Of a DNA stretch of 64,000 nucleotides, positions 38,001-64,000 are shown piece by piece. This DNA comes from Sminthopsis crassicaudata. Its lineage: Eukaryota. The stretch covers positions 255,630,055 through 255,694,054 of the forward strand of contig NC_133622.1 of assembly GCF_048593235.1 (NCBI RefSeq). Direction: 5' to 3'. The notes beneath the pieces are model-generated. The model ran no database searches and was not told the DNA's origin. It saw only the letters and a program-made list of their open reading frames with translations. Positions within the stretch are counted from its first letter, which is position 1, and each line of letters starts with the position of its first letter. A program made the position numbers and the translations under genes.

Positions 38001-40382
38001 AACCGCAGGGGGGGGATCAGAAAGACTGACTGGGACAAACCGGACCGGGCGCTCTGGAGGGAAGAGCGGGCTCCGTTTCTGTGCTCAGTGCTCCCTCCTC
38101 CCGAAGAGGAGTGCTCCCACTCTGGCCAGAAACGTTAATATTCCTTAAGTTCTTTAATAAATTCTCGCTGTCAGACTGTGTGAGAGTGTTATTCCTGACC
38201 GAGCCCCTCTCTCCGCCTTCTCCCCCCCCCCCCCCCCCGGGAGTCTCCCCAAACCCTCCCGCTGTTCCTTCTTATGGAATAACGCTCCGGAATGTTCGGC
38301 CCTTCCCCCAGTGATGGGCGCCCCCCAGTCCCCAGGTTTCTGCCGCCCATGGGGTCCCTTTCACAGGCCCAAAGAAGCGCTGCTGTCCCGCCGGGCACGT
38401 TCCGAACCCCGGCCCAGCCATGCCTTCCCAAACACCCAGAACTTGCCCCGCCCAGGATTTCCCTCACCTAGGAACCCGCTTGGGCCGACCTCGCCCCCTC
38501 CCACTGGGTGCGGCTGCCCCGGCCCTCCTCCCTCCCGGGCGCCGCCATCCTGCACCCCCAGGGCCGGGAGTGAGGGGGCAGAACCCGGCCGCCGGGAACT
38601 GGGGGACACGCAGCGCCCTCACATTTACCACGTTTAGCACGTGCTGGATTTTCAGCCATCTTGGGGATGGGGGGTTGGAGCACAAGCTTGGGCAGGTTAA
38701 AACGTGCCTGTTTTGAGTATTAAAAAGTCCTCAAGCCGCAGCCTCTCCCACCCTCCCACGCTGAGACTGCGCACCCCCTCGGGGAGTGTGGAGGGAGTGT
38801 GGAGCAGCCGCAGCCCCGGCCTGCCCAGCACTCCCACCCCTCCGCTTCCCCCTTCCCTGACTTCAGGGCCTCCCTGCGGGGCAGGGTTTCTGGTCCTCCC
38901 CATTTACAATTACTCCCTCCTCCCCCTTGTATCCCAGGCACAAAGGAGGTCCCCGAGTGACCCTGGCCTGGGAGGGCTGGCTGTCCCAGAAGAAGCAGGG
39001 GACATACAGGAGCCCCGCCCCCCCCCCCCAGACTTCCAGAGAAACTTCCAGAAATAAAAGCTAGAACGTGGCAGAGCGGAGCAGGGCCCGGATCCAGCTC
39101 AGGAGGCCTCCGTGGGTCCCACTGGGCAGCGCTGAAATCTCGGGGTCCCCCCTGGCCCAGAGCCGGAAGTGCTGCGAAGGCCCAGGAAGCCCCGCTCCCT
39201 GCAGCAAGCCCACAAGGATCAGAAGGGGCCATCCGGCCTCTAGAGGGCTGGAGTTTAGCCCACTCCCTTCTGGGGCTAGTTGGGAGGAGGCCTAAGTCCA
39301 CGATTTCTTCTGAGACAACGAGCCACACGGCCCATTTCCCAATATGCTTTTGGGGTACCACCCGTACCCCACATTCCAGGCTGGCTGTTTGGAAAAAGCA
39401 GATCTTCCTCCCCACCCGCCCTCCCCTCAGGAAAGGTTGACTCACTCTGGCCCCGCCCCACCCCACCCATGAGCACTTGTGGTACGGAGAGGGCCAAGGC
39501 CAGGCCACCCCCGACTGAGAGTACCCCGGGGGAGGGGAAGCACTTCTCAAGGGGCAGGAAGGCCCGTCCTGTCCACATGGGAGGTTCGGGCTCCAGGCCC
39601 GGCCCGACAGGGACCCTGCTGAGAGTGGAAGGGAAGAAGCAAGCGTCCTGGGCAGAAGGGCGCTCACCCTGGGCAGAAGGGCGCTCACCCGGCAGCGACA
39701 GGCTCCTCCTGTGTCACACGGAGAGAGCCGCGGCGGGCTTCCATTTCAGGCAGCCGTGCTCAGGGACTCCGGGTCCAGGAGCAGCAGAGCCAGCTCCCTG
39801 CCCGGCCCCCCCCCCAGTGGGAGCTTAAACCCCTCATTTCACCAATTTCCTTCCTGCTTCACAGTGAAGGATCCAGGACCAGCCCCAGAGGCCCTTAAGC
39901 TCCCGCCTCCGGCCGGGGAACCCGGCCCTGAGGAAAACACACGGGTTTGTGTTTGTCTCCTAATGAATCAAAAAGGAAAAAGTGCCCAGGACAGTTTCCC
40001 CCTTCAGGCTCAGTGGCGAGGGACCGGGGATGGCTGACAGCGCGGGGTCCTGGGGACCCCAGGCTTTCCCTTGGAGCTGCCAGCCTGGGCCGGGCAGCAA
40101 TGCAAGGAAGGCTTTCTTGGGGCGGGAAGTGAACAAAGGCAGCAGGCGACAAAACAGCAGGAGACCCCAGGTGTATTTTTAGAGAAACAGAAACACAGCC
40201 GCCCGGGGCACAAGGCTGCCCTGGAAGAGGAAAGAGCTGGGTTCAAATCCTTCAAATTTGAGTGTTAAAGGGAGGAGCCCTCTCCGGCTGGGAGGAGCCT
40301 GCGGTTCCACTGCCAAGGAGACAGCCGGACAGGACCAGGATCCACCACCCTTCCCGGGCGTTTCTGGGAGTCCTCGCCCCAG

Positions 40383-43300
40383 CTACTCTTTGTCCAGCAC
40401 TCTGGATGAAGTCCCCGGGAGGCAGAGGCGACACAGGAATCTCGTTTTCCAATCTTCCTCACCGTGCTCCCTCCTCACACACATGTGGTGAACCCAGCCC
40501 CGGCAGGACTCGCACTGCAGCTGCAAGGCGGGACGGGGTCACCGGGCGGCTCGGAAGGGAGCTCAGCCCAGGCACCCCCTGCATGACGCTGCCTCATCCT
40601 TGTGCCTGGAACAGCCCCGGGCTCCCCATCTTCTCTCCTCAGGGCTGGAGCTTCCCCGGCCCATCAGAGGAGAATCCGCGCCTCTGCCCCCTCCCCGCCG
40701 GAATCCGGCTCACCATGGTGAAGACGTCGCTGTTGCCCTCGTCAGTGAGCCGGTTGCAGTAGGAGCACGTGTCCTCCATGGTGACCGTCACCATGGGGCC
40801 CTTGTCCTGTTTCTGGGCGCTGTCCGGGGCCTCTGGGAGGCTGTCAAACGTGGACCAGATGTCGGTGTCCGAGTCCTCGGAGGAAGAGTCCTCCAGGCTG
40901 TCCAGGTATTCTTCATCTTCGTCTTCCTCATCCTAGGTGTGCAAAGGCAGCCACGTAGGGAGCTTCCCGGACTCTAATTTTTGCTCCTGAACTTAAAATA
41001 CCACGAGGGAGCATTTCCCCACCCCCCCGGACGGACCACCACAAAATTCCATTTACACCCCGTGGTTCGGGGGGGTGTTCGTTTGCTGAGGCAGTTGGGG
41101 CTAAGTGACTTGCCCAGAGTCACACAACCAAGCAGTGGGAGCAGATTTGAACTCAGGCCCTGACTTGGGGGCGGGCGCTCTACGCTCTGCGCCACCCAGC
41201 TGCCCGCCCATTGATTTTTAAAAACGAATTCCCCGATTTGCATTTTTGTACACAGCTGCAGCAACATCCGGGGCCTGGGCTGCGGGCGCTGGAATTGTGG
41301 TACCAGCCCCCACTGCAAGGGGCCAAAGGCTCCATACGGGGACTTTTCTGCGTTACATCAGGACAGCCTGCTGGGCCAAAGCCCTGGGCAGCCTCCAGTC
41401 CGGAGGCCAGGATTGCCGCCCTTTTGGGCCCTTCAGTCTCCTCGTCTATGAAGCGCTTCCTCCTACCAAGCCTTTTCCTAGAAGTCGGGGAGCACAGAGA
41501 AAGGGGCGAGAGGACTGTCCCTATGTGATCAAGGGGGCGCAGGGAATCAGCCAGGTGCCGGGGCAAAGGAAGAGCCAGAGGGCCGGAGCCCCATGCCAGC
41601 GGGCTCCGGCCTCTCCCCGAGCCCCTCCACCTGCACAGGAACATGGAAGCCTGGACGGCAGCCCTGGTAGGGCAGGTGAGGGGGGGACGGAAGGGGCTGC
41701 CCCTCCCCCACGCCCGGTCCACTGTCTATCTCCTTCCCTTCTGCAAACAGTGTGGTGGGGTTCCCTCATCGAGGGGTGAGGGGTGGGCCACTCACGTTGT
41801 ACGAGTCCCGATTCTGCAGAAAGAGGATCTTCTGGAGCTGCAGGTCCCAGTCCACCTGGTTCAGGTTCACCACCAGGGAGAGCAGGCTGCAAAAGGAAGG
41901 GGCAGGGGGGGAGCGTGCATCCCCAGGTCACGGGAAGGGGCAGCCGTGGGGAAGGACCGCCCCGGGAGAGCCCAGCACCAACCCCTCCGCCCCCCTGGAT
42001 CGGACTCTGATCCAAAGGCGAAAGACCGAGTCTGGAGTCTGGGCAGCCTGACGTTGAATTGTGGCGCGTACCTCTGCCCGTGTGGGATAAGGGGCAAAGA
42101 GACCCCTGAACTACCTGGCCCCCTCCCCGTGTGAGAGAAACACCCGAGGAGCCTTTGGGCCCAAGCAGGGGAGCTCTCTGAAGGCCGGACTTCCCATCCC
42201 CCAGGGCAAGCCCTGGAGACGGTGGGGCCCCGAACCTCCAGTCTCGCTCGCCCCAGGGGTGGGAGCCTTGGAGAAAATGCCGGGCTGGGCCCCTCCACAC
42301 CCAGACAGCCCCGAGGTTACCAGGGCGGAGCCCGGGGGAAGAGCTGCAGGCCCCAGGCCGAGCCACCCCCAGGAAGCGGAGATCCTCCCCAGCCCCACCT
42401 TACCTGCGCACAAACGAGTTGGTCTTCTCCAGGAGCCCGTGCGCCTGGGGGTGATACACGACGATCAGGTCGCACTTGATTTTTGTTTCTGCTCTCAGGA
42501 TTTGATTGAGCTGCAAGAGCGGGTGGGAGGGGAAGGACAAGGGGCCGCCGGGAGGCAAGGGGACCCTGGGTGCTTATCGGTTCCACACCACAGGAGGGCG
42601 GTCGGGGCGCTCAAGCTCCCTACGTCCCAGAAACCGCCCCCTAAATACCAGGAGCTTCCACTGCCAGGCTGGCGTCTCCCACCCTGGGGCCCGCCAGACC
42701 GACCCGAGCCTCGTCTCCCCCCTCCCCTCCCTCTGACTGCTGAGACCCTTTCTACCCGGTCTCGTGCTGACAAGACCCCGCTGCCCCCATTACCCAGCTG
42801 GCCCTGCCCCCCCCCCCCCACGCCCGGCATCGGGGCCGCCTCCGCACCTGCTGGACAAACCCGCCGCACTGGGTGCTGACGATCCTCTCCGGGAAGCCGA
42901 AGCGGTACACCAGCTTGAGGATCTGCTCGGCCGTCTCCTCGGGGGAGCAGGTCTTCATGGGGGCGACCTCCACCCAGCGCGTGTAGTGGTCCACGACCAC
43001 GAAGATGAAGCGCGCTCCCCTGGCCGTCTGCTTCATGGGCCCCACCAGCTGGAGGCCCACCAAGTGGAAGAGGCCCCGGGCCTGGGGGCGAAGAGTACGG
43101 TCAGGGGAGGAGCTGCAGCTGGCAGCCGGCGGGCACTACCAGCATGTTTGCCAGGCCCAGAGACGGCTCGGAAGGGGACTCTGGTGGAGGTGCTTGGGAG
43201 CTGGGAGCCAGCAAGCCTGGGGTCCAGACTGATGGTCCGCCCTCCTAAGGGCTCGATTTCTTCATCTGAACCCCCAGCTGGTACTGTGGCAAGGCTGAGG

Positions 43301-46300
43301 GCACAGAGCCCGCAGCTCCGAACCCTGGCACCGACCAGCTGTGTGAGTCTAGCGGCCTTGCCACGGGAGTTCCAGGGCCTCGGGGTGCAAGCTCAGGGCC
43401 CTGGACAACCCTCTTCCCCAAGGATGTTGCCGCCAGCCCGGCTTCCCGAGCTTCTCCGTGCCATCCCCTCTCCCCACCCGGGCACAGACAAGAAGGGACC
43501 CCTCCTTCTGATGCCCATCGAGAAACAAATGCACTTCTGCCAAAGGCTGCCCTCCCCTCCTCCCCACAGAGAACTGGGAGCTCACTGAGGCAGGGGCGCC
43601 TCCGTCTGCTCCATGCCCGCTCTGAGCCTGGTGCAGGCCCACAGTCCATGGGGGTGAGTCCTACAAGGCCCCCTTCACCCACTTATCTTCGGGTGTGTTA
43701 AGTAGGACTCTGTCAAAGGGATGAGAACCCAGTCCTGGGGGGGGGCCACTTTGGGGGGGACCCCCTTCTTCACAGCCCCCGGTCCCGTTCTTAGTACACC
43801 TGGCACCCAACAAGGTACCTGGGCCGCAGGGAGCTCCCTTCGGGATTGGGGGGGCTGCTTCTTGGCCTTCAGCAACAAGGGCGGCTCCTTCAGCTCGGTC
43901 GTCGGCCCGTCTTTCTTGGGAGCGCGGGCCAGCTTGACTTTCTTGAAGGACTCGGTTTCCCCAACCTGTGAGGACGAAGCTCAAGGCTGGGGCCCCGCCT
44001 GGCCAGGCGGGCATCTGGCCCAGGGGGAAAGTGCCATTCTTGAGGGGACCCTGAGGCTGCTACTTCCCTGCTTTTAGAGGGGCAGACGCGGGCAGGGAGT
44101 CCCCAGCCGCGGCCCCTGAGCCCACTTACCTTGTTAGCTCGGGTTTCCTTCTCTGCCAACTTGTCCTTCTGGCATTTCTTACACTCCTTGACCTGGAAGG
44201 GGGAGGACCGTCAGGCTTTCAGGCTGGGCCGCCTGACCTTCCCAACCTTCTCCTCCCCCTCCCCCTCCCCCTCCTCTCCCTCCTCTCTAGACCGAGGATT
44301 CTGTTTGCATCTTTGGCTGTTTTATTAAACAATTTACCTTTTGAAAGGCGGCTGGGAAAAGTCTGCCCAGACCCACAACTAACATCCCTAGGACAGGCAA
44401 CAATATTCCCATTTTACAGCTGGAGAAACTGAGGCTCACAGAATCTAGTGCCTTGCCAAGGTGGCGCCGGCAGCAAGTGCGAGTCAGCCCCAGCTCCCAG
44501 TCCGGGCGGCCGTGGCGGGCAGCAGGGTCCCTGAGGGTGCAGCCCACCCAGGGGCGCTGGGCCTCTGCCCAGGCGGAGTCTCTGCGGGGCTGAGCTGCCT
44601 TAAAGGCAGGAGAGGACGTGCTCCCAAAGGATATCAGGAGCCAAGGGTCAGCCGGGGCTGGGCTCGCTCTCCAGAGGCGGGGATTACCCAGAGGGGGGGG
44701 GGGGTCTCCAAGCGGGGTCGGAGGCTCAGAACTTTCAGGATGGAACGTTGGCGCCTCTAACGAGTAAGATCTAGAAACACCCAGGACGAGCCCGAGGAGC
44801 CCGATTCCCACAAATGTCAGAACCGCGGGGGGGGGGGGGGGGGGGCAGGTGATGGCCCGTGAGCTAAGGGGAGCCGGGGCCCCTCGAGGCGCAGGTTTGG
44901 GGGGAGGGCCGGCAGCCTCGCTGCTACATCCATGGCAACCATTGGCCCAGTCCCAACCTTGAGGCCGCGGCTTCTCGGAGCAGCTCCTGTCACAGCAGGG
45001 GGAGGGAGGGCGCTGGTTCTGGGCCTGCGCCCCAGCCCTCGCCCGGCTCTTGGGAACAACCCCAAAATCAGAGGCCTCGGGGGAGGGGAGAGCGCGACCC
45101 TTAGAGGGTAAGGGGGGGCCCAAGACCAAAGAAGTTAGAGAAGTGCCCCCGGCTCCTGAAGGACCCTCAGCCGCTCCTCCCCGCGGGAGCAGCCAGGAGG
45201 GGGACTTTGCAGAGGCCTCAGGCAGTGACTGCCCTCTCCCCCGGCTCCCTGGCGGGGGGCAGAGCCCGGACAGCTGCCTGCCCCCATTAGGGGCAGCTTC
45301 TGCAGCGGGAAGTGGGCTTTGCCCAGGGAACAAGACAAGGGAAGGAAGGAGGCCCCGCCCCCACTTCCCAGTGGCCTCTGGCTCTTAGGTCAATTTAAAT
45401 TTTAAATAGGAACCGTGGGCCCAAAAGAAACAAGGGAGGATGGGGAAGGACCAGGGACAGCTGGGATTCCTTTCCTGGCCTCCACTTACGAGCTCAGCCG
45501 GCCCACTTTGCAGCCCCCTCCCCAGCACCGGCGCAAGGTTTGAATGGACAGGATTTGGGTCAAGAGGCGGTTCCAGGTCTCTGGGCACATACATTTTAAC
45601 CCATTCGGGACCGCCTGCCATGGGGGAGGGGGGGAGTTGGAACAGAAGGCTTCGCGAGGGTCAGTGCTGAAAAGTTACCCAGGCATGTCTTGTGTAGGAA
45701 AGCGGGGCGCAGCTAGTGGGGGGGTGGATGGAGCACCAGGCCTGGGGTCAGGAGGAGCCGAGTTCCGATCCCACCTTATACAGGACTTCCTGCTGCGTGA
45801 CCCCAAGCGCCTCAGCAGAAAGACTTGTTTCCAAGAGGCAGTTCTGGCAGGGGCAGGGACCAGCGAACGTCCTTAAAGGCCCGGCTGAGCCCCTCAGCCC
45901 AGGCCCCCCCCCCCTGCGCAGCCAGTATTTTCAGAGAGTAAAAAGGGTCCAACTACCACGAAGGAGGGAGGGCGGCAGCCTGGGGCCCCTTCTCCGCAGC
46001 TGTTCCAACGCCCCCCAAAACAGGAGCCCGGAGGAAAGCAAATGCAGGAATCTCCGGGGTCACGTTAAGCTACCGGGTCAGAGCCCCAAGTTCAGAAACC
46101 CTGGGGGGGGGCGGGGATAAATGGCTCCACTGGAGCAGCGGGAGCCGGGCTGGGCCACTCTCTGCCCCCACCGGCCGCTGGAAGGTTTTAGGCTGGGGGG
46201 GGTTTATGCCAAGTTGGCCCCGGTTCCGCCCTCCCCGCGGCCTGGGATTTGGGGGGAAGGCCAAGGCAGAGGGCGGCTCCCCAAAGAGGAAACCTGCCTC

Positions 46301-48144
46301 CCAGAGGAGTCCCAGCACTGGGGTCTGAAGCCCCTCTCCCCCCCACCCCCCCCCCCGGCGAGCTCTAGTTACCCATTTCCGGGAGTCGTAAACCACCCCG
46401 GGCCAGTAGTAGGACTTGGTGACATTGCCCCCGGTCTTGCGGATGCCCAGGTGCCCCCGCTCGGAGATGTGGGCCTCCAGGAACGCCTGCCTCTTCTCCT
46501 CCAAAGTAAAAAGGATCTTCTGCTTCTTCCCTCGGCCCTTGTAGTAAAGGTGATTCCCTGGCGAAAGAGCCAAAGCCCAGAGCGGCCGCGTGAGACCCCG
46601 GAGCTCCCCAGCCACCCCCACCCCCGTGACCTTGGCCCTTGACCTCGGCCCCCTCGTTCAGGAAGCATCGGATTGCCAAGGCCACGGGCACTGTCAGGCC
46701 CGGACTTGAGGAGGAGGATCCCCGGGGTCCTGATTACCTAGCAACCCCCCCCCCCAAAGACTGCACGGCAAAAAGCACTTAGCAGCCTGGTCCTGCCTTC
46801 AATGCCCTCCCGCTGAAAGGGGGGGGCGATAGGTGAGGGCAAAATAGGGGGGGGGGTCAGAATAGAGCCAGATTTGCCCCTTTGAGGCTTTTAGATGGTG
46901 GCTCAGGGGCAGCGCTTTCTTCGAGAGGAAGCCCAGCTGTCACCCCTTCCTCCCGGGGGAGCCTGGGACCTACCTCTGGGCCTTTGTGCCAGACATTAGC
47001 CCACAGTTCCGATCCATTTAAAAACCTGGCTGAGTGACCCTGGGCAAGTCACTTAACCCCCGCTGCCCCGGCGCAAAAAGTTAAAAACCAGGGAAGCAGG
47101 TGGAGGCGGCTGGGGAGGGGGGAGGGGGTTCAGAGAGGCAGGAAGGCGGGAGGAGCCCAGCCCCCAGGGGGGAGATGATAAAGTGGTTTAGTGGCCCTTG
47201 ATTGCTGCCTTTTATTATGTCAATGGCCTCCTAATGCGCTCCGCCCCCGCTCAATTTTCCCGCTCAATTTTCCCCCTCAGCCCAGTGAATCAGCCCCGGC
47301 CTCCCTCCCTCTCCCGGGGCCCAGACTTCAGAAGGGCTGAGTCCTGGGGGGGGGGCCTTATTCCCTACCCCAACACACACACAGCGCCCTACAAATCACC
47401 CCCATCTCCTGCTCTCAGAATCGCCCGGACTCCCCCACAGCCAGTCCCAGAGGGGCCCCCATTATTTCCTTTTCCATCTGGACGCCCCCAAAGACCGTCC
47501 ATCAGTCCGGAAGCGGCCCCTCCTGGGGGCTCCGGGCCGTCCCCACCGGCCACCTCCCTTCAGGGGCAGCAGGGCATTTGAGCCCCTTCCCGCCCGCCTC
47601 TCCTCGGACTCCTCCCCCAAGCTTCCCACAGTGCCCCCAGGACACCCACAGGAGCCAGCTCGGCGGGGCACCAGCCTTTGAAAGTCCCAGAAGCTGGGGA
47701 GCAGCCGGGCTGGAGGTGCAAAGAGGGCCGGGAGGCTGGAGGACCCCTGGACTTCCGGCCACAGGTGAGGGCGGGAGGGAGCTCCCTGACCTAGTCTAGG
47801 AGGAATCAGGGACTGGGGGAGGGGCGGGGAGGGAAGGCCATCCAAGGTCAAGTTCTGGGACCAGAGAGAGGGCAAGAGGGAAACACTGACCTTCCTGAAA
47901 GAAATTCGCCTTCTGCAGCAGCTGCCTCCGCAGAGCCTCCGGGGAAGAGCCGGCCTTCAAAAGCTGCAGAGCCGTGGCCTGGCGGGAAAGAAGCAGCGGG
48001 TCGGGGAGTGGGGGGCTGGGGGCCCTGACCTGGCAGCCCCCTGATAGCCGGCTCCCCTGGCGGCCGGGGCCCCCAGACCTGCGGCATGCTCCCCCTCTGC
48101 ACCCTGCACCCGCTCACCTGCCGCTCCCTCCGAAGGGACTCCAT
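40383..48144 (-). CDS. Integrase-PHD gene, copy B: Gypsy/GIN-like HHCC + integrase core (degenerate triad) + acidic region + PHD finger; 10 coding exons, 432 aa
   Basis: Exons (-): 48144-48118 MESLRRERQ; 47978-47891; 46557-46373 (EAH...GHLGIRKT...SYYWPG); 44192-44130 (VKECKKCQ); 43965-43819 (basic linker); 43081-42848 (GLQLVGP...VVVDHYTRWVE...GFPERIVSTQCGGF); 42510-42404 (YHPQAHGLLEKTN); 41886-41796 (DWDLQL); 40932-40714 (acidic, TCSYC); 40520-40383 (LQCESCRGWVHHMC...FLCRLC...*). All introns are GT-AG, phases match, sum 1299 nt, no internal stop. The first exon is the least certain. Confidence 0.85.
41090..41205 (-). mobile_element. Marsupial SINE fragment in the last-but-one intron of copy B
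   Basis: Reverse-complement SINE motifs AAGTGACTTGCCCAG...ATTTGAACTCAGG...CCAGCTGCCC. Confidence 0.7.
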
Positions 48145-48187
48145 CCTCGCAGTCTCAGCTGATGGGCAGCAGCCGCCAGCCCGGGCC

Positions 48188-48196
48188 TTATTTAAA
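48188..48196 (-). promoter_or_regulatory. TATA-like element (TTTAAATAA) upstream of copy B first exon
   Basis: About 45 bp upstream of an ATG in strong Kozak context (gcgaggATGG at 48144), in otherwise GC-rich DNA. Confidence 0.4.
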
Positions 48197-48549
48197 GCAA
48201 GGGGGCTGCCTCTTCACTCCCCCCAGCCCCGCCCCCACCAGTCCTACCCATCCCCCTCACCACCGTCCCCTTCCTGCTCCTGCCGCAGCACGGCCGGCCC
48301 ATCTTGTTGGGACCCAGGAGCCCAAAGGAAGTGTATTCCCCCAGAAGCCTCCTCGACACTGCTGGGGGGGGAGGAGGCTCCCCAAGGTCCTCCCCAGCTG
48401 GCCAGGCCTCTGGACTCTGCTGCCTGAAGGGAGAGCAAGACTTTGGGCAGCTCTGCCCGCTTAAAAATTTACCGGGAAGCCGGGACAAGGCTCTGAAAGG
48501 GAGGCTGGGCGAAGGGAGGCTGGGCTGGGCTCTCATTCCTATTGCTCAG

Positions 48550-48750
48550 TGATAAATGGCTGCACCCAGAGAAAGAACCACAACTCGGCATTTGCCCTCC
48601 TGTTGTTCTCTTGCATTTTGTTTTCCTTCCCAGGTTATTTTTACCTTCTTTCTAAATCTTTTTTTGTGCAACAAGAGAACTGTATAAAAATGTACCCACA
48701 TATTGCATTTAACTTATACCTTAACATGTTTAACCAAAAAAAGAAGAAAT
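48550..48750 (+). mobile_element. Truncated LINE-1 3' UTR fragment just upstream of the copy B promoter
   Basis: AT-rich island TTTTTGTGCAACAAGAGAACTGTATAAA...TATTGCATTTAACTTATAC ending in an A-rich tail, within GC-rich DNA. Confidence 0.55.
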
Positions 48751-50397
48751 AACTGAGGAAAGGAGAAAGGAGGCTGGAGGACTCCCGGCTTTGCTCCGGC
48801 CCCAGCTCCTCCCGGCTTCCCCTGCTCTCCCAGCTCCTCCTCCTCCTCGGGCCTTTGAGCTCCCCAAGCCTTTACTCCCCTGTCCCCTTTCCCCCAAAGC
48901 GCCTCCGTGCTGGCCACAGCCCACCTCCCCTCGGCCGGGCGCACCCTGACCTGGCGGGGCCCCCTTGTCCAGCGCCGAACCAGGCCGCCCCTGGCCGGGC
49001 CCCCTCCCCTCCAGGCTCTCATTTTGAGGCTCGAGGTGCATCAGGGCCACAGGATTTGAGTGTGATGGGACCTGGGCCAGCAACTCCCCATATTCCCGGG
49101 ACAAGTGGGGGCCTAGCCCCTCCCCCCAGGGCAGCCTTCCCAACATCAAGTGGGCCTCTGAGCCCTCCCCTCCAGGAGGACGTGGTCCTCGCACCCCAGG
49201 ACAGCCATCTTGCCTTCTCCAGTCCCTGGGCCCTTCCTCCCAGGCTGACCCGTCCATTCCACCTCCTCCAGCCCCTCTTGTCATCCTCTCTCTGACCTCT
49301 GGACACTTTCTGCGCCTACAAACAGGCTTGTGCTCTCCCGCCCTCAAAGAGCCCCCATCCCCGCGCGTCCTGTCCCCTCCTTCCCCTTTTTGCCTTGCGA
49401 AAGACTGGGCGGATTTGTAGCCGGCTGGCCTGGGAGACAGCACTCCTCTGGCCCCGGGGTACATGGGGGGGTCTTGTGGGCCCCCCTCAGGGTCACCTCA
49501 GCAGAGGAGCGGACTCAGCTGCCCCCCCCTTCCCCATTACTGGGTTCCTATTGCAGTGAAGGAATGAGGACTTTGTTTTCTCTGCCAAAAAAAAAAAAAA
49601 ATGTTCTTTGATGTAGAAATTAGACTAATTGGGGGTCGCCTCCCCAAGACAATGGGGAGAGAATCCAGAGCCCTCCCTTGGCCTCCCTGAGCGGCCTCAG
49701 GTCAGTGACTTACCTGCCCAGGTGTAGGCAGCCTCCAGCATGAGCTGTCGGGTCTGCAAAGCGCCCCACTGAACTGGCGCTGCTGGGGCCCCTTGGACGG
49801 ATGAGGGAGTGGCGGCAGGTTAGGGGATTTTCTCAGGGTCCCGGAGCCTCGGAATTCAGGCCTTCCTGCCGCGAGCTTCCGCCCCCTCCTGGAGGAGCCC
49901 CTGCTGCTTAGAGGAGGGTCCCTTGCAGCCCAAACCTCAGCCCCTCTGGGAGGGATCCGCAAACTGGCCAAGAGTCAATGCTCGAGGTTTTGTGGGCGCA
50001 GAGACAACAGCAAGGCTCCGGCAAACCTCCATGGGATTCTTGTAGAGGAAATTAAAAGTGTATAACAAGAACTGAGGCCGCAGGGCTTTTTGGGGGTTTT
50101 TTTGATGTGGATTATTGAGAAGGAAAATTGGGATTCTTTTTGAGAGGAAAACTTTCCGCTTAATTGGGATCCAAAGAGCCAAACCAGGGGCCGGTGTTCC
50201 TGCCGGCGCAGGGACGGAACAAAGGAGCGCGGTGACAGTGATGGAGAATTTCCTGGGGAAAAGCAGCAGGAATCCTTCATCTCAAAGTTAAAGCTCAGGC
50301 AGATTTAATCAAGATTTAGACAAATGGGGAAAGCGCACTTCGAACCGAGCAGCCTAGGTTTACACCATTAGCGCCCGAGGCTGGGAAAGCGGCCGAC

Positions 50398-50483
50398 TCC
50401 TCCTCCTCCTCCTCCTCCTCCTCCTCCTCCTCCTCCTCCTCCTCCTCCTCCTCCTCCTCCTCCTCCTCCTCCTCCTCCTCCTC
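50398..50483. repeat. (CCT)n trinucleotide microsatellite, about 28 units
   Basis: Directly visible, between the two integrase-PHD genes. Confidence 0.95.
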
Positions 50484-51395
50484 CGCTCCCCTTTCCCAGG
50501 GGAAACTCCCCTCGGCGCTCCCCGTTTCCCTTCTAATTGCTCCCCAGAGGCAGGCCCAAGGACAGCCTCCGCACCACCGTCCGGACCGGTTTTCAGAACC
50601 TCTGCTCCTCCTGGGACGGGATGCAGCCCTCGGCAATGTCCTGGCAATCCCGGCTGTAGGAAGGATGCAGGGGAAACCCCAAGGGCAGCGGGGACCCCGA
50701 TACTGTTCAAGAAATCCCTAGGCTCCCCGGCAGTCACCTTAGGATTGGGGCTGCTGAGGGGCCCTGCTTCAGGGGGGCTGGGAGCCTCGTCCTTGGGGGG
50801 GGCCTCTCCCACCTGGGCTCAGACAAGTGCTCGGTATCAGGAGGGGGGGTCCTCAGCCCCATTGCCAAACTCCCCCCCCTCCCGGTGTGGAGTTCTTTTG
50901 TTCTGCCCCTCCCCCCAAGTGGATGTGCCTGCTCTTTGCTCTTTCCTCCCTGGGGATTTAGCCCTCTTTAATGGAAGGTCCGATTAGGAATCACAACTTC
51001 TCTCCACTTAGAGATTGTGGAGACACCAGTCCAGAACCCGTTTGGGGGATCCCCCGTACCCCAACCCTCTGGCTACTACAAACAGACATGTCTGGCCTCT
51101 CAAGCTCCCCTCAATCTGGCTCCGGACGCCTTTCAGACCTGGCCCGCGTCAGGCCGTTCTCACCGATCCCCCCAGTCAGCAAAGCGCCCCCTCTGGTCCC
51201 ATCCCAGGCCGCTCGCCCTCCCTTAAGGCCCCAGCCCCGCCTTGGGCTCCCCCCTCCCCCAATCTCATGGTTACTTGTTTTTAGGGCTCATTCCCAGCCC
51301 TGTCCCAGAGAATCAAGGACCCTCTCACTTTCATCTTTACACCAAAAGTACAGCCGGTGCCAAATAAGTGCTGAACGGTGCCAAATAAGTGCTGG

Positions 51396-51401
51396 TTTAT
51401 T
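51396..51401 (-). terminator. Probable polyadenylation signal of integrase-PHD copy A
   Basis: First AATAAA on - after the stop at 52195 (about 800 nt), followed by a tandemly duplicated CACTTATTTGGCACCG element. Confidence 0.5.
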
Positions 51402-52194
51402 GATAGCAGGACTTTCTGAGACAGCAAGAGGCAGAACACAGCTCCGCGGCCGCAGGGCACAGCGCGGGTCCGCGCCAGGGGACGGAGCCGCCCGGCCGGA
51501 GGGGAGCAGGACGAGCCCAGGCTTCACTCAAGGCCAAGGGGCCGGTTTGGGGCGGCTGAGCTCGGAATAACCGCGGGAGCCGGCGGGAGCGGCCCGTGCC
51601 TGAAAAGGGACGTCAAGGTCACCAAGAGACCCGGAGATTGGGGAGGGGCAGGGCCCAAGTGGCGCCGGGCCCCCTGGGCTCCTCTCAACCCCCCCCTTTC
51701 AGAGCCGCTTCTGAGGCAGGCTCAGCTTCAGGCCCCGCCCTCTCTCTGTGGAGGGGGGGAGTGGGGGGGGTTGTGTTGTTGTGGGGGGGGGGCGGCACAC
51801 ACTGTCCCGGCCATCCCGGTTCTCTGCCTCTGTCAGCCTAAGGCTTGCATGTCCCCTAGTTGTCTGGTGATGACTTAGCAGGTCATGGGGGGAGGGGGAG
51901 GCTGTGCGGGAGCAGCGCGGGTCGGGGTTCCGGGGGCCGCAGGGAGGCCCTCTGCCAGACCTTTCCTGTCTCTGGGGGATGATCGCTGGAGGAAAGGCAG
52001 AGCCGGAGGAGGAAGGCCCCTGAGCCCCCCCCCCCAGCCAGAGGGCAGCCCAGGGTGATAGTCTGGGACCAGCCAGCAGAGGGAGCCGGGCCTGGGGAGG
52101 GGGAACACGAGCAGAAAGCCCCCCCACGTTGGCCCCCCCAGCTGCTCGGGGCCCCGGGCCCAGCCCCCGGACTCACCCCCGCGGTGCCGCTGCG

Positions 52195-55100
52195 TCACTC
52201 TGGGGCTGGGGGCCCGGGGAAGCAGGCCTTGCACCGGAACGCGCTCCTCCAGCCGTCGCCCCGGTACCAGCGCTGCACACAGGTGCGATGGGCCCAGGCC
52301 TGGCACGCGCCGCACTGCAGCTGGGAAGGCGGACCGCCGTTACCCGGCAAGCTCCGCGGGAACCACCACGGACCGATCGCCCGCTCCCACCCCCCCACAA
52401 AACCACTAAGCGCCCCCTGAGCTGCTCTCCCCTTCCCCCCTCCTTGCCCCTCCCGGAGGGTCCGGCCCCAGGGTGCCATGGAGCAGGTCAGACGCCCCTG
52501 GGGAAGGCTCCCCAGCGGAGCAAGGAGCACGCTGGGAGGGAGGGCAAAGGGGGTCCCGGGCTGCAGGCCCACTCACCATGGTGAAAACTTCACTGTCGCC
52601 CCTGTCGGCCAGCTGGTCGCAGTAGGGACACGTGTCCTCCACGCCCAGGGCGGCCACCAGCACCGTCTCCGAGTCCTCGTCTGGGGCCGGCTCCGAGGAG
52701 GCCGAGGGGAAGGGAGCGGAGGGCAGAGCGTCCTCCCCGTCCAAGTCCTCCTCCTTCTCCTCGGAGCCCAGGTCTTCCTCCTCAGACTCATTCTCTGCCT
52801 GGGGGGCGAGAGCCCAAGCCCGGCCTCAGCACTGTCTGCCCCCACCCCCAGGGGCTTCCCGCCCACCCCTCTGCTGGTCTCTGCGCCAGCCCCTTACTGA
52901 GGAGGCCCCAACCCCCCTCCCCCACCCGGCCTGCCCCTTTCTCCATCCCCTGGGGCAGCCATCATCTCCAGGGCCGGCCTCACTTTTACTTCCCCAGATT
53001 TGAGGGCAGGGGGCGTTTGCTGACCGGTTCTGCCCTCCGCTCCCCATGTGGGTGAGGGCGGGGGCGCCCAGCCCGAGGAGCCCCGGGCACTGCCAGGGAG
53101 CCCCGGGGAAGGGGACCGAGAGCTCAGTGCGAACATTCACGTTCAAAGCCGGCCGTGGGCACTTAGGACTCTGTAGTTTCTTTTGGGAGAATAGCTGGAA
53201 ACCGGTTTTTATTGAGGTGTTGGTACAAAAGCCTTAGAACCCAGGGGAACAAGAAGCGGGAAAAGAAAAGCCGGTTTTGGGGACCGCGTCCGAGGGGCCG
53301 CGTCGGGGTGACTGGGGAGAAAAAGCGCCCGCGCAGTTTTCTTAGCCAAGGGGCTGGCGTCTGGCAGTCACAGGCCCCCCTCCCTTGCCCAGGACTCCCG
53401 GGGCCGACATCCCGGCGTTCCCTGGGGCCAGGCGCAGGCGGACCGTCCTCACTCCAAGGCTCCCTCTCCGTTTGACAGCTGAGGCGCGGGGGCAAGCGGA
53501 TCTGCCCAGGGTCTCCCGACTAAGGGGCCAGCGGCCGGGGCTCCGGACTCCCCTCCTCCCCACGCCTGGGGCTGCGGGACCGACACCTCTCTGGCTCGGA
53601 GAGCCCCGGCCGGGAGCCTCCACCCAGCCGCCCCCGTCGCAGGTCACCGGCTTCTGGACGGAACCGCCGGCTGGACATCACTGAGCAAACTCGGGCAAAC
53701 TGACCTGCGGCTCGGCACCTGGACGGGCCCGGCCAAGGGAAGGCCCAGGTGCCCCAGGAGCTCCTTTGGAGGCCGGTGGCCGGCTCTTTTCTCTCCTGGG
53801 AACCTTCCCCGCACCACACCCCAACACGCCCCCCTCGGGAAGCATGTGGAGCTCAGCAGGGCAGAGCCCCCCCCCCCCGCCTCAGGCTCCTCTCTCACCT
53901 AGCCCGCGGCCCGACTGTGAGCACCCAGAGACCTCCCCCCCAAGCCAGAGGCGGGCAGATGGAGGCCAAAGGGAGCACACAGATGGCAGAGTGGCCGATG
54001 GGGGGGGCACGCAGGGGAGCAGGAGGAGCCCTCACCTGCATCTGCAGGAAGAGAACGTTCGGCAGCTCGAGGTCCCAGTTGGCGGTGTCTCCCCTCACCA
54101 CCAGCGTGAGCAGCCTGAAAACCAAAGAAGTTTGTTGGGACTCCACAGAAACAGGGGGACGGCCCCCGATGGCGGCCCCCCTCACCTCTGCACGAAGGCG
54201 TTGGTCATCTCCAGGAGCCCGTGCGTCCGGGGCTGGTAGCTGGCTACAAGGTCACACTGGAGATCGGCCCGGATCCTCAGAATCTGATTCAGCTGCGAGA
54301 GACGGGGGGGATGGGAGGCTGACAGTAAGGGGGACATGGGAGGCTGGCAGCGAGGAGATCATGGAGCAAGCACAGCCTCTGTGCCTCATCCTCGGGGCCG
54401 CCTCCAATCAGAACCCAGCTCTGGACTATCCGGGCATGGATAAATGGAGCCCAGGGTTGGCGTCTCCCCCTTTACTCCCCAGCAAAGGGGATTCTGCTGT
54501 GCATTCTTTGGGCTCCCCACTGATCTAGAGCCCAGAGAGTCCTCGCCCGGTTCCCCCAAGCTGAGTCCGTGCTTCTGTGCACTTCCACCTGGAGCGCCCC
54601 CTCCCGCACTCCCGAGGCCGGCCTGAGCAGCCGGGCCCCCCTTTTGGCCCCCACATCTGGCCCCTGAGAGCCCAGACCCCAGGCCGAGCACCTGCCGGAC
54701 GAAGTCGCCGCTCTGGGTGCAGACGATCCTCTCCGGGAAGCCGAAGCGGTACACCAGCTTGAGCACCTGCTCGGCCGTCTCCTCGGGGGAGCAGGTCTTC
54801 ATGGGGGCGACCTCCACCCAGCGCGTGTAGTGGTCCACGACCACGAAGATGAAGCAGGCTCCCCGGGGCGTCTGCTCCATGGGCCCCACCAGCTGGAGGC
54901 CCACCAAGTGGAAGAGGCCCCGGGCCTGGGGGCGAAGGGCGCGGTCAGGAGAAGAGCTGCAGCCCAGCCGGGCTCATCTGAAGCTCTGGTGCTCAGAATG
55001 CTGGTTCGGACAAGGCCGATACCCAGAGAGCCCGTGGCTCAGCATCCGGCCTTGTCGCTGGGCACAGCCTGCCCGCCATCCTGGCAGTGCCCACCCCCAG

Positions 55101-57662
55101 GGCCCCGCCTTTCCTTTACCCAGATGCCCGTGCTGACGGTAATCCACAAGGATTTGCAGGCTGATGGGCACAAAGGGAAACCCTCACCTCGACCCGGGGA
55201 GGGCCCAAGTGAAGAACCAGAACTCACCCTCCTCATCCCCTCCCCTCCCAGAATCCCCTCCGGGGCCCAGCTGCCACTGGCCCAGTCCAGTCCAGTCCTT
55301 CCGGGTGGACGTCTGATGGGGCACCGAATGCCCCCTCGCTGGAGAAGGGGGTAAACAGCGTACCTGGGCCGCCAGGGCTTCTTTCTTGGGGACCACCGCA
55401 GCTGGGGGCAGGAGTCGCAGGGGCGGCGAGACGGACGGCCTCCCCCTGAGCCGAGCCGCCAGGGGCACTGCCTGCTTATACTTCTTAGCTTTGACCTGGG
55501 ACCCAGTGGGAGGTGTCTGTGGGAGACTCCAAGAAAGACCGTCTCTCCCCCCAGCCCCTCAGACCTCCCCCCCAAGCTCTGACCACAGGCCCCCCCGCCC
55601 TTACCCTGGCACTCCGGGCTTCCTGCTTTGCTAACTTGTCTCTCTGGCACTTCTTACACTCCTTCACCTGGGGATGGGAGAGCCCGAGCTGAAGCAGGGG
55701 GGGCCAGGAGGAAAGCCCCCAGCTCCTGACCTCCCCTCCCCCCCCAGCCGTCACTCGTATCCTGGACCCTTCTTATGGGCCCCTTCCCACGTCCCCACCA
55801 ATCTTAAACAAAACCAGCCGACCTCCCCGGGGGGAGATGCCACGGCCAAAGGAGGGATGGGGGGGGGAGTCTGCGGCCCCACCCATTAGTGGTCATGGGA
55901 CACAGGACAAGAGCTAGTGAGCCCTAAAGTACCTAGGGGCCCAACCCCCCCACATCCCCAATGGGAAAGCACCAAAGCCCAATGAACAAGCACCTATTAA
56001 GTGCTTGCTGTATGCCCCGTGGCGGGAACAACAGACCAAAAAACCCCACAGCCAATCAAAGATCAATTAGCCCTCAAGGGCAAAGGCCAGGCTGGTGGTC
56101 AAGGCTGCATCCATGATTGACAGGAGGTGGCTTGGGGGGGGAGGTGGGGATGCTGTAGTTGGCCCCTTGAGGGACAGCAAAGTTGTCCCCCGGGATGGAA
56201 GGAGGCAGGGCAGGGTTCAGAAGGGACCCTGGGGGAACCTGGGCTTCCCAAAGGTGGAGCTGCCCAGCTCGGCGCTGCCAGGGAGGGGCCGGGGCAGTGA
56301 GGTGACCGTGTGTGTCAGAGCAGGGCATGGAGGACAGAGTGGGTAGGGAGCCTAGAAAGGGAGGCTGGGAGCAGGCCGGCCCCGTGGAAGGGTTGGGATC
56401 GCCCGCAGCTCCTCGGAGCCTCCATGCATCCCTCCCTGCCCCGGGCGCCCCCTGCGGCACCGTCCCTTTCCCGCAGCTCCCCCTGCTCTCTCTGGCTCAG
56501 TCTCTCGGTTTCCCCATCAGTAAGTGGGGACCCCACCGCCACCACTTCCGGGGCGTCCCTCACCCACTGCCGGGCGTGCAGCGTGATCCTGGGCCAGTAG
56601 TAGGACTTGGTGATGTTGATGCCCGTGGCCCGGATGCCGTGGTGCCGCTCCTCCGAGACCACGTGAGCCTCCTCAAAGGCTTTCCGCTTCTTCTCCGGGG
56701 TGAAGAGGACTCTCTGGAACTTGCCTTTGCCCTGGTAGTACAGCACGCCGCCTGGGAGCAAGCGGGCCCAAGAACTGCTCGGGGCCCCGCCCCCTCCCTC
56801 CCTGGGGCTCAGCGGAAGCCTTTGGGTGAGGCCCCTCCAGCACCAGAAAGTGCTGATCCAGGCCCACCTCTCCCTCCCAATATGGAGCCCTCCCTGCCTC
56901 CAGCTCCAGCTGCCGCCCTCCAGCCGTTTTCAGTCCTGTTCCATCTCTGTGGCAAAGACATTGCCACAATTCCCTTCTCCGCCCATTTTACAGACGAGGA
57001 AACTGAGGCAAACGGGGTTAAGCGCCCAGGGTCCCATAGTTAGGAAGGGTCTGAGACGGATATGAACCAGGAAGAGGAGTCGTCCTGACTCCTGCCATTC
57101 AACCAAGAAGGCCCCCAGTCTTTGGGGTTTTACTTCCCCAGTCCTCCTGCCTAAAGGATGGCTTCCACACAGGTGGGCAGAACGGCCTTCCTCTCCCATC
57201 CTTCCTGCCCTTTAAGGCTCCTTCCCACAAGCACCCCCTCTCCCCAAAAGCTACCCCGCCTTCCCCAGCCAGGCCACGCCCCCCCAACCCCTAGGAGGTG
57301 ACTGAAGGCGCCAGACAGGAGGACACCCGGGCCCCCTCCCCCAGCCCAGCCCCGGGAAACCAAGACCCGGCACGCCCCAGGTTTGGGGACAGGGATGGGA
57401 GCTGGAGCCCTGAGGCCCCCGAGGAGCTCGAGACCCGAGGCAGGGAGGCCCATGAGCCCCGGGCAGCTAGTCACACAGTGCTCAAGATCCCGGGCCCAGG
57501 GGCTTGGCTGAAGTCTAGCACAGCTCCCCGGGGCCAGGGGCTGCAGGGCGGCTAGGCACCCGGCCGGAAGTGACACTGACCTTCCAGGACAAAATTGGAG
57601 TTCCGGCTGAGCTTTCTTTTGACCGAAGGGGTCGGGGACGAGGTCATCCTCAAAAGCTCCAT
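52195..57662 (-). CDS. Integrase-PHD gene, copy A: same architecture as copy B; 9 coding exons, 410 aa
   Basis: Exons (-): 57671-57581 (ATG at 57662); 56751-56564 (EAH...RHHGIRAT...SYYWPR); 55667-55605 (VKECKKCQ); 55495-55364; 54925-54692 (core); 54292-54186 (YQPRTHGLLEMTN); 54114-54036 (NWDLELPNVLF); 52798-52577 (acidic, TCPYC); 52320-52195 (LQCGACQAWAHRTC...FRCKAC...*). All introns are GT-AG, phases match, coding sum 1233 nt. An additional upstream exon is possible. Confidence 0.87.
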
Positions 57663-62699: not shown

Positions 62700-63134
62700 T
62701 TCAATTGTACCTTCAATAATTCTTTCCCTAACTTACAACCTCATTATACAATTTGGACTTATTTTCACTAACCAATTAATTTCAACACATGTTTTTCTGT
62801 GTTTTTTATTTACCTAAACAATGGATTTAAACTTCAATGCTGTCACTGAATTTCACCTGCCTTCAGTTGCTTTCTGATTTCAAAATAAGTTTTCTTTTTC
62901 TGGGAGCACCTTCAATCAATGTCCCAATCACGATATATTTGGTGCTTTCAGGTTGGTTGTTTAAAAACAGTAAACATAGGAGATAAAATGAATTCCAAAT
63001 CTACCCACTTTTATCCTTTTCTTATTCCTTATTCTGCCTTCTAGTAATAAATATTCTGCAGTGGGCCAGAACTCTGGACAAATGTACTTGAAACAAGGTG
63101 TTTAACTCAGTGGAATTGATGAGATGATGGTTCT

Positions 63135-64000
63135 CATATATAGTCAGTGCTCAGCGTGGTGATGTCATGGTTCTCTAGTTCTCATATATAGTCAGTGCTC
63201 AGCGTGGTGATGTCATGGTTCTCTAGTTCTCATATATAGTCAGTGCTCAGCGTGGTGATGTCATGGTTCTCTAGTTCCCATATAGACTCAGTGCTCAGCG
63301 TGGTGATGTCATGGTTCTCTAGTCCCCATCTATACTCAGCATGGTGATGTCATGGCTCTCTAGTCCCCATATAGACTCAGTACTCAGCATGGTGACGTCA
63401 TAGTTCTCTAGTCCCCATATAGACTCAGTACTCAGCATGGTGACGTCATGGTTCTCTAGTTCCCATATAGACTCAGTACTCAGCGTGGTGATGTCATGGC
63501 TCTCTAGTCCCCATATAGACTCAGTACTCAGCGTGGTGATGTCATGGTTCTCTAGTTCCCATCTATACTCAGTACTCAGCATGGTGATGTCATGGTTCTC
63601 TAGTCCCCATCTATACTCAGCATGGTGATGTCATGGCTCTCTAGTCCCCATATAGACTCAGTACTCAGCATGGTGACGTCATAGTTCTCTAGTCCCCATA
63701 TAGACTCAGTACTCAGCGTGGTGATGTCATGGCTCTCTAGTCCCCATATAGACTCAGTACTCAGCGTGGTGATGTCATGGTTCTCTAGTTCCCATCTATA
63801 CTCAGTACTCAGCATGGTGATGTCATGGCTCTCTAGTTCCCATATAGACTCAGTACTCAGCGTGGTGATGTCATGGTTCTCTAGTTCCCATATAGACTCA
63901 GTACTCAGCGTGGTGATGTCATGGTTCTCTAGTCCCCATATATACTCAGTACTCAGCGTGGTGACGTCATAGTTCTCTAGTCCCCATATATAGTCAGTAC
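63135..64000. repeat. Minisatellite, 48-bp unit (with 42-bp variants) GTCAGTGCTCAGCGTGGTGATGTCATGGTTCTCTAGTTCTCATATATA
   Basis: Period 48 (63143, 63191, ...); runs off the window end. Confidence 0.95.

What the first reader, a model, noticed from the sequence alone, without database searches (positions are those of the whole stretch)
42404..54925. Both integrase cores carry the same dead catalytic triad, Q,T,(35)E
The first Asp position (canonical xDLxGP) reads GLQLVGP in both copies. The second Asp position (canonical IxSDQGxEF) reads IVCTQSGDF or IVSTQCGGF. The Glu is kept exactly 35 residues after that Thr (GLLE), so the D,D(35)E spacing is preserved while two of three metal ligands are lost. 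The shared substitutions imply catalysis was lost before the duplication and that the fold has since been retained for DNA or protein binding or multimerisation, as a pseudo-integrase.
Basis: partly seen in the sequence, partly recalled or inferred. Interest (0 to 1): 0.7.

Follow-up and report, generated by a model that had tools for sequence, protein, structure and literature searches.

The report
Marsupial dead-integrase gene cluster
Australian marsupials carry a cluster of three intron-containing genes, likely tamed from a jumping-gene enzyme, whose proteins lack the acidic residues needed to cut DNA but keep the fold and a PHD zinc finger, so they likely work as chromatin-binding scaffolds; I found no paper describing them.

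Summary
The motifs are real. The two 'cores' belong to two separate minus-strand host genes (A, 432 aa; B, 410 aa); a third intact paralogue (C) lies just beyond the window, and a related gene (D) is on another chromosome. A, B and C each encode H2C2 zinc finger, integrase core, acidic tract and PHD finger. Q, T and E align with foamy-virus integrase's catalytic D, D and E, and no substitute acid sits there. All 6 of 6 A junctions tested are spliced in public contigs, and A is 92-99% identical to wombat and wallaby A outside one exon. These are not GIN1 or GIN2, which were found elsewhere in this genome. Early loss is still likely, because C and D also lack both aspartates. The Glu is lost in most C copies. 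Best reading: an apparently undescribed marsupial family of Ginger1-derived pseudo-integrases, likely chromatin scaffolds. Dead Ginger1 integrases are known (GIN2, Imagin); function is untested.

The parts
40383..48144 (-). Gene A, 10 coding exons, 432 aa: H2C2 zinc finger, basic linker, dead integrase core, acidic tract, PHD finger
   Evidence: Open spliced frame, all junctions GT-AG; 6 of 6 junctions in 40200-44300 seen in public contigs; orthologues in wombat, tammar, devil
52195..57662 (-). Gene B, 9 coding exons, 410 aa, same architecture
   Evidence: Open spliced frame, GT-AG junctions; orthologues in devil, wombat, Antechinus; one contig with B-type bases runs from the core exon into B exon 4 sequence (one search compared by eye)
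46373..46557 (-). A exon 3: first half of the H2C2 finger (H68, H74); C104 and C107 lie in exon 4 (44130-44192)
   Evidence: Pfam Integrase_H2C2 E 4.6e-7; ligands conserved
56564..56751 (-). B exon 2: first half of the H2C2 finger; second half in 55605-55667
   Evidence: Pfam Integrase_H2C2 E 1.7e-5
42848..43081 (-). A exon 6: first part of the integrase core, carrying Q (43051-43049) and T (42874-42872) in place of the two catalytic Asp
   Evidence: Pfam rve E 6.8e-4, below the curated cut-off; alignment to foamy-virus integrase
54692..54925 (-). B exon 5: same core exon, Q (54895-54893) and T (54718-54716)
   Evidence: Pfam rve E 3.8e-4; 221 of 234 bases identical to A exon 6
42404..42510 (-). 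A exon 7: YHPQ loop and retained Glu (42429-42427); outside the conversion tract
   Evidence: A-B dS 0.99
54186..54292 (-). B exon 6: retained Glu (54211-54209)
42844..43129 (.). Gene-conversion tract in A (partner 54688-54971 in B): the core exon plus about 45 bases on its acceptor side, ending at the donor site
   Evidence: blastn 286 columns at 92.7%; other A-B matches 70-86%; 20-base windows 16-20 of 20 inside, 4-8 of 20 outside
40404..40773 (-). PHD finger of A (C4HC3), split by the last intron
   Evidence: Pfam PHD E 2.2e-4 on the last exon, below the cut-off; 8 ligands present; Atlas top hits are PHD clusters at 0.90-0.91
52213..52636 (-). PHD finger of B, split by the last intron
   Evidence: Pfam PHD E 2.2e-3; best PHD match in the PDB for the Antechinus B protein is MLL1, E 0.003

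Best explanation
A, B and C are intact, intron-containing marsupial host genes, likely domesticated from a Ginger1 DNA transposase, whose proteins lack both catalytic aspartates and so are predicted to be non-enzymatic; they likely act as nuclear chromatin scaffolds. Shown: gene structure, splicing of A, strong conservation of A, loss of the Asp residues, the integrase fold of the model, an intact C4HC3 finger, and exon-limited gene conversion. Inferred: the H2C2 domain and basic linker bind DNA and carry nuclear import; the dead core dimerises as integrase cores do and may still grip nucleic acid through the retained YHPQ loop; the PHD finger, replacing the usual GPY/F-SH3 tail, docks the protein on histone H3 tails; and the genes act in the germ line, where processed retrocopies of A, C and D must have arisen. 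The conversion is probably a by-product of the core exon being the only long, well-conserved exon.
For: Triad alignment. Model pLDDT above 90 over most of the H2C2 and core; VIA Z 16.1-17.1 to foamy-virus cores, rmsd 2.5-4.1 A over 134-171 residues. No SH3 or C-terminal integrase domain in Pfam for A or B orthologues. Splicing. A against wombat and tammar: 73/74 and 72/74 (H2C2), 59/62 and 59/62 (late core), 49/53 and 51/53 (PHD). A-B dN/dS about 0.4 in unconverted exons (dN 0.35, dS 0.86). Introns shared with GIN2 at 3 positions and with gene D at 5 exact positions. A/B/C group with D at 98/90 support. Some Ginger1 transposases carry introns and one family carries a PHD finger (PMC2836005); an Atlas cluster has the same H2C2-core-PHD layout (score 0.84, a lead only). 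Intronless copies with stops: A on C2, C on C1, D on C6 and C2. N-terminal region 21-22 K+R against 9 D+E in all three.
Against: No function was measured. The PHD region of the model is low confidence (pLDDT about 50-60), and it lacks an aromatic residue just before the first Cys, which many H3K4me3 readers have (recalled). The closest characterised analogue, Imagin, is cytosolic in oocytes (PMC12863088). D has no PHD. AU tests do not reject A/B/C grouping with GIN2 (p 0.23) or GIN1 (p 0.10), and A/B/C and D are both long branches. Placement next to fish and amphibian Ginger-like proteins is weak (65/94). Contig depths were low and several contigs were unspliced; tissues are unknown.
Confidence: 0.55

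Rival explanations
1. The proteins are non-catalytic partners or decoys of an active integrase: architectural subunits for GIN1, or dominant-negative inhibitors of endogenous retroviral integrases.
For: The GIN1 candidate in this genome keeps D,D,E. Five inactive PiggyMac-like proteins do this in Paramecium (PMC6143343 abstract). C evolves fast (34/73 in H2C2 against bilby) and the family has duplicated. Integrase-like frames at about 30% identity, probably retroviral or retrotransposon copies, are numerous in this genome. A defence role has been speculated for GIN1, GIN2 and cGIN1 (PMC3575427 passage).
Against: A is almost invariant, unlike an arms-race gene. A is only 18/78 identical to GIN1 in the core exon, so a shared dimer surface is doubtful. 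No known programmed rearrangement in marsupials needs it (recalled).
Confidence: 0.15
2. They are cytoplasmic RNA-binding or storage proteins of germ cells, like crustacean Imagin, and the PHD finger binds proteins other than histones.
For: Imagin has the same H2C2 plus dead core and is cytosolic in oocytes (PMC12863088). Retrocopies point to germ-line expression.
Against: All eight PHD ligands plus the conserved Trp are kept in A, B and C, except a predicted koala C that lacks the second Cys. The N-terminus and linkers of A and B are strongly basic, as in nuclear proteins. No PHD is described for Imagin in the sections read.
Confidence: 0.15
3. Origin rival: the cluster is a transposed duplicate of GIN2 that later gained a PHD finger, not a separate domestication.
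For: A fish GIN2-like protein reads VVCTQSQDF against IVCTQSGDF in B. Three introns are shared. The AU test does not reject the clade (p 0.23).
Against: GIN2 has two core introns that A/B/C lack and lacks two that A/B/C share with D. A is 23/78 identical to GIN2 in the core exon against 35/78 to D and 29/78 to a cichlid Ginger-like protein. The best tree separates them.
Confidence: 0.12
4. The core keeps a residual or alternative nuclease activity using the retained Glu and nearby acids.
For: The Glu is kept in all 5 A/B protein rows and in koala C; Asp200 is invariant; B has Asp or Glu four residues after the Thr.
Against: Asp200 is also present in 52 of 54 other rows that mostly have their full triad, so it is not a replacement. 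The +4 acid is Gly in A. The Glu is lost in dasyurid and bilby C. The C-terminal DNA-binding domain is missing.
Confidence: 0.05

Closest known systems
GIN2 (Gin-2), vertebrate Ginger1-derived gene
   Same: H2C2 plus integrase core with a degraded triad (PMC3424704); three intron positions shared.
   Different: GIN2 sits beside OGFOD2 on C1 at 33.7 Mb in this genome; it has no PHD and different core introns; it is single copy and far older.
GIN1
   Same: Ginger1-derived amniote gene with H2C2 and core; shares the two introns at A100 and A248.
   Different: The candidate at C1 534.0 Mb keeps D,D,E and has no PHD in the part modelled; 18/78 identity in the core exon.
Imagin (malacostracan crustaceans; PMC12863088)
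   Same: Domesticated Ginger1 integrase, H2C2 kept, DDE lost, purifying selection, gonad-biased expression.
   Different: Independent event; single copy in most lineages; disordered tail and no PHD described; cytosolic. The marsupial genes form a three-gene cluster with exon-limited concerted evolution.
Ginger1 DNA transposons (PMC2836005)
   Same: Gypsy-like integrase, some with introns; extra C-terminal Ulp1, OTU or PHD domains.
   Different: Active elements have D,D,E, GPY/F, terminal inverted repeats and many copies; these genes are fixed and conserved across species.
PiggyMac-like proteins of Paramecium (PMC6143343, abstract)
   Same: Several catalytically dead domesticated transposases in one genome alongside a relative with an intact site.
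   Different: Different superfamily; no evidence here of a complex with GIN1.

Membership tests
Active Gypsy/Ginger1 DDE integrase | H2C2 zinc finger | tested here: met
   Pfam PF17921 E 9e-13 and 4e-11; H, H, C, C in all A/B/C rows shown
Active Gypsy/Ginger1 DDE integrase | RNase H-like core fold | tested here: met
   Model matches foamy-virus core, Z 16-17
Active Gypsy/Ginger1 DDE integrase | D,D(35)E triad | tested here: not met
   Q,T,E in A and B; Q,T,R in C; G,T,S in D
Active Gypsy/Ginger1 DDE integrase | GPY/F or SH3-like C-terminal domain | tested here: not met
   No SH3_Tf2-1 or Integrase_p58_C hit; the core runs straight into an acidic tract
Active Gypsy/Ginger1 DDE integrase | Terminal inverted repeats, target-site duplication, dispersed copies | tested here: inconclusive
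   Only 3 matches to the core exon in the genome, all in this cluster (counts are lower bounds); terminal repeats were not searched
GIN2 | Locus between OGFOD2 and ABCB9 | tested here: not met
   The cluster lies between an oxysterol-binding-protein gene and TNFR and CARS genes; a separate GIN2 lies beside an OGFOD2-like gene (the ABCB9 label is recalled from the translation, no Pfam hit)
GIN2 | Groups with GIN2 in a tree | tested here: inconclusive
   Best tree separates them but AU p 0.23
GIN1 | Conserved D,D,E and orthology | tested here: not met
   A separate intron-containing gene with D,D,E exists at C1 534.0 Mb; its GIN1 label rests on triad and recall, synteny not tested
SCAND3/KRBA2/NYNRIN | SCAN, KRAB or NYN domain fused to the integrase | tested here: not met
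   No such Pfam hit for A, B or C orthologues at E 0.01
Domesticated Ginger1-derived host genes (the general kind) | Fixed, intact, conserved across species, under purifying selection, transcribed | tested here: met
   Orthologues in 6 named marsupial species; conservation; A-B dN/dS about 0.4; splicing. Synteny in other species not tested
Domesticated Ginger1-derived host genes (the general kind) | The three introns shared by Gin-1, Gin-2 and Ginger1-5_HM | tested here: inconclusive
   A38, A100 and A248 are shared with GIN2; A100 and A248 with GIN1 (5' exons not modelled). The paper's figure with the positions was not visible
PHD finger | C4HC3 zinc ligands | tested here: met
   C370, C373, C390, C393, H398, C401, C417, C420 in A; aligned in B and C
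H3K4me-reading PHD fingers | Aromatic cage and H3 tail binding | tested here: inconclusive
   Trp before the His is invariant and a Phe lies four residues before Cys3; no aromatic before Cys1; best PDB PHD hits are MLL1, SHPRH and EBS at E 0.002-0.03; binding not measurable here

The most novel reading that the evidence does not exclude
A Ginger1 domestication in early marsupials produced a four-gene family (A, B, C beside CARS1; D on another chromosome) of catalytically dead integrases. The PHD-bearing members form a marsupial-only chromatin-reading complex for germ-line gene control or defence against retroelements, with selection keeping the core exon of A and B alike so that they can heterodimerise or act with the still-catalytic GIN1.
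Probability: 0.15. Interest if true: 0.75.

Novelty: new variant of a known kind. Interest (0 to 1): 0.5.

Why it matters
A published inventory lists ten retroelement-derived genes in marsupials and does not include these (PMC3670739 passage). They would add three or four lineage-restricted genes, one of them nearly invariant across orders, and show a Ginger1 integrase turned into a predicted chromatin reader by keeping a PHD tail and dropping catalysis. The locus is also a clean case of recurrent gene conversion confined to one exon, which misleads any dating from shared substitutions. It sits in the OSBPL5-CARS1 interval, at the edge of the eutherian KCNQ1/CDKN1C imprinted domain (labels and context partly recalled).

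Tried and rejected
One protein with two cores: rejected; each copy has its own start, PHD exon and stop. Retroviral or LTR relic: unlikely; 8-9 GT-AG introns, open frames, cross-order conservation (LTR, gag and RT were not specifically searched). Replacement catalytic acids: none found in the columns scanned; side-chain geometry could not be inspected because model coordinates are not returned. First fold on 5 sequences was unusable (pLDDT 42). PHD plus H3 1-30 complex prediction gave no verdict (score 0.26, mark 0.34, no controls folded); it is no evidence either way. No run was on record as RNA; 4 of 20 listed runs were laid, on 40200-44300 only, so A exons 1-3, most of B and all of C have no direct junction evidence. 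First-half PHD search of the PDB found nothing. No non-marsupial orthologue appeared in three word-indexed searches or among the best 150 of 27,901 profile hits (30 proteins were looked up by name, some from the other searches). No opossum or monotreme protein was seen, so 'marsupial-specific' and the age are provisional. Earlier scan findings: none. Literature searches without a description of these genes. Marin 2010 on GIN transposons is not held and may bear on novelty, as may unread supplements of PMC3670739 (Table S1) and PMC2836005. The GIN1 model has one codon too many at one junction; this does not touch the triad.
Full report
Observation. On the minus strand, copy A reads GLQLVGP (Q at 43051), IVSTQCGGF (T at 42874) and GLLE (E at 42429); copy B reads GLQLVGP (54895), IVCTQSGDF (54718) and GLLE (54211). 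With one intron removed, 35 residues separate T and E in both. phmmer of the wombat A orthologue against the PDB puts Q, T and E on the D, D and E motifs of foamy-virus integrase and Ty3 integrase. In a 63-row alignment 41 rows read D,D,E at these columns, and none of the 9 marsupial rows has Asp at either Asp column (2 are truncated before the first). The one invariant Asp of the core (residue 200) is shared with 52 of 54 other rows, so it is not a substitute. An AlphaFold2 model from that alignment (mean pLDDT 71.6, mostly above 90 in the H2C2 and core) matches foamy-virus cores at Z 16-17. The model returns no coordinates, so the active-site comparison rests on sequence alignment.

Anatomy. 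The two cores are two genes. A has 10 coding exons (48144-40383, 432 aa) and B has 9 (57662-52195, 410 aa), all junctions GT-AG. A third paralogue, C, lies on the plus strand about 6-12 kb past the window's right end (loci L004-L005; 9 exons, 558 aa, open). Each encodes an H2C2 finger, a linker (basic in A and B), the core, an acidic tract and a C4HC3 PHD finger. No GPY/F or SH3-type tail was detected. Four of 20 listed runs were laid on 40200-44300; all 6 of 6 predicted A junctions there appear in contigs, each in one or two contigs. One contig carries B-type bases and continues into B exon 4, which indicates B is spliced too (by eye). The neighbours are an oxysterol-binding-protein gene of the ORP5/8 type and a C2H2 gene on the left, and a TNF-receptor gene and cysteinyl-tRNA synthetase on the right; the names OSBPL5, ZNF511 and CARS1 are partly recalled.

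Distribution. Orthologues were named from Tasmanian devil, Antechinus, wombat, tammar, koala and bilby, all labelled uncharacterised, integrase-domain or GIN1-like by the sources. A is nearly invariant against wombat and tammar outside the core exon (92-99% by region), B is moderately conserved and C evolves fast. No non-marsupial orthologue was seen, but these searches are limited and showed no opossum or monotreme protein, so the range is provisional.

Not GIN1 or GIN2. The genome holds a GIN2 beside an OGFOD2-like gene on C1, which is the published position (PMC3424704, part 2 of 5 read), and a separate intron-containing gene with D,D,E that is probably GIN1. It also holds a fourth degenerate gene, D, at C1 13.26 Mb between a TBC-domain gene and a CASTOR1-like gene, with a tammar orthologue, G,T,S at the triad and no PHD. 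A, B, C and D share five exact intron positions; GIN2 shares three of them and has two others. In a 69-row tree A/B/C form one group (100/100) that joins D (98/90), apart from GIN1 and GIN2, and weakly near fish and amphibian Ginger-like proteins (65/94). AU tests do not reject grouping with GIN2 (p 0.23) or GIN1 (p 0.10), so separate domestication is likely but not shown. Some Ginger1 transposases carry introns, one family carries a PHD finger, and Gin-1 and Gin-2 inherited three introns from them (PMC2836005, parts 1-3 of 5 read). That makes a Ginger1 source the simplest origin for both the introns and the PHD.

Gene conversion. The exon carrying Q and T is 221 of 234 bases identical between A and B. 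Its dS is 0.08, against 0.76-1.12 in the other conserved regions (4 of 56 against 66 of 125 synonymous sites, Fisher p 8e-10). The tract covers the exon and about 45 bases of its acceptor side and stops at the donor. Wombat A and B are 72 of 78 identical in this exon, more than either is to its dasyurid orthologue (61-67 of 78), and share wombat-specific residues, so conversion appears to have recurred in two lineages. Sharing Q and T between A and B therefore says nothing about timing. C has Q at the first site but its core exon also shows lowered dS (0.36-0.40), so it may have been converted long ago. D, on another chromosome, lacks both Asp and shares the Thr, which makes early loss the most economical history if A/B/C and D share a domesticated ancestor. 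The simplest cause of the conversion is mechanical: this is the only well-conserved exon longer than about 200 bases, the reported minimum for efficient conversion in rodent cells (PMC3924818 passages). Selection for a shared surface is not excluded.

How it most likely works. Shown: intact, spliced, conserved genes without the catalytic aspartates and without the usual C-terminal domain. Inferred from established integrase biology (recalled): without two of three metal ligands the core cannot cut or join DNA, yet it can still dimerise, and the retained YHPQ loop is the part that contacts DNA ends in intasomes. The basic N-terminal region and the intact PHD finger point to the nucleus and chromatin; the best PDB PHD matches are MLL1, SHPRH and EBS, all weak, and the aromatic cage is incomplete. 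Intronless, stop-bearing copies of A, C and D on other sites indicate germ-line transcription. I put the chromatin-scaffold reading at about 0.55, and the narrower claim of a domesticated non-catalytic gene at about 0.9. Rivals are a partner or decoy for an active integrase, as with the PiggyMac-like proteins (PMC6143343, abstract), and a cytosolic RNA-binding role as proposed for Imagin (PMC12863088, abstract and two sections).

Novelty. Dead Ginger1-derived integrases are a known kind: GIN2 has a degraded triad and Imagin has lost it. What appears new is this marsupial family, its PHD-bearing layout, its expansion into a cluster, and the exon-limited concerted evolution. A phylogenomic inventory names ten retroelement-derived genes in marsupials without these (PMC3670739 passages). 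Eight searches and term look-ups in four more papers found no description. Marin 2010 could not be read, subscription journals are mostly absent, and supplements were not read. Verdict: real, a new variant of a known kind, interest 0.5.

Noticed in passing
L004:5736 to L005:2272 (+), just beyond the window: Third paralogue C, intact, 558 aa, Q,T,R at the triad, with a repetitive Gly/Ala/Pro-rich N-terminus; evolves much faster than A.
   Followed up: yes
L020:4628 to L021:2885 (+), G000:C1 13.26 Mb: Gene D: another intron-containing dead integrase (G,T,S) with a Gln/Pro/Met-rich repeat tail, between a TBC-domain gene and a CASTOR1-like gene; tammar and Antechinus orthologues; apparently also undescribed.
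   Followed up: partly
L017, L018; G000:C6 149.24 Mb and C2 557.61 Mb: Intronless copies with stop codons of A, C and D, consistent with processed pseudogenes.
   Followed up: partly
window 36538-37411 (-): ZNF511-like C2H2 gene (name recalled) with apparently a single intron; only one other, stop-bearing, match in the genome. It may be a relocated, partly processed copy.
   Followed up: partly
window about 8700-27300 (+); L006; G000:C6 255.74 Mb: Flanking genes fit the OSBPL5 - TNFRSF - CARS1 order, the edge of the eutherian KCNQ1/CDKN1C imprinted domain (context recalled); imprinting of A/B/C is untested.
   Followed up: partly
proteins P0027, P0046, P0024: Other vertebrate-type Ginger-like proteins with degraded triads (an unnamed transcript protein with a partial PHD, reedfish, a turtle) suggest further undescribed domestications.
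   Followed up: no
window 59250-60150: Imperfect G+C-rich tandem repeat with long open frames on both strands upstream of B, between the divergently oriented B and C.
   Followed up: no
window 63100-64000: Tandem repeat array with a unit of roughly 45-50 bases running off the window's end.
   Followed up: no
Antechinus proteins P0012, P0182, P0158; devil P0011, P0005: Several NCBI models split A, B or C into N- and C-terminal halves at the linker, which may be annotation error or real short isoforms.
   Followed up: no
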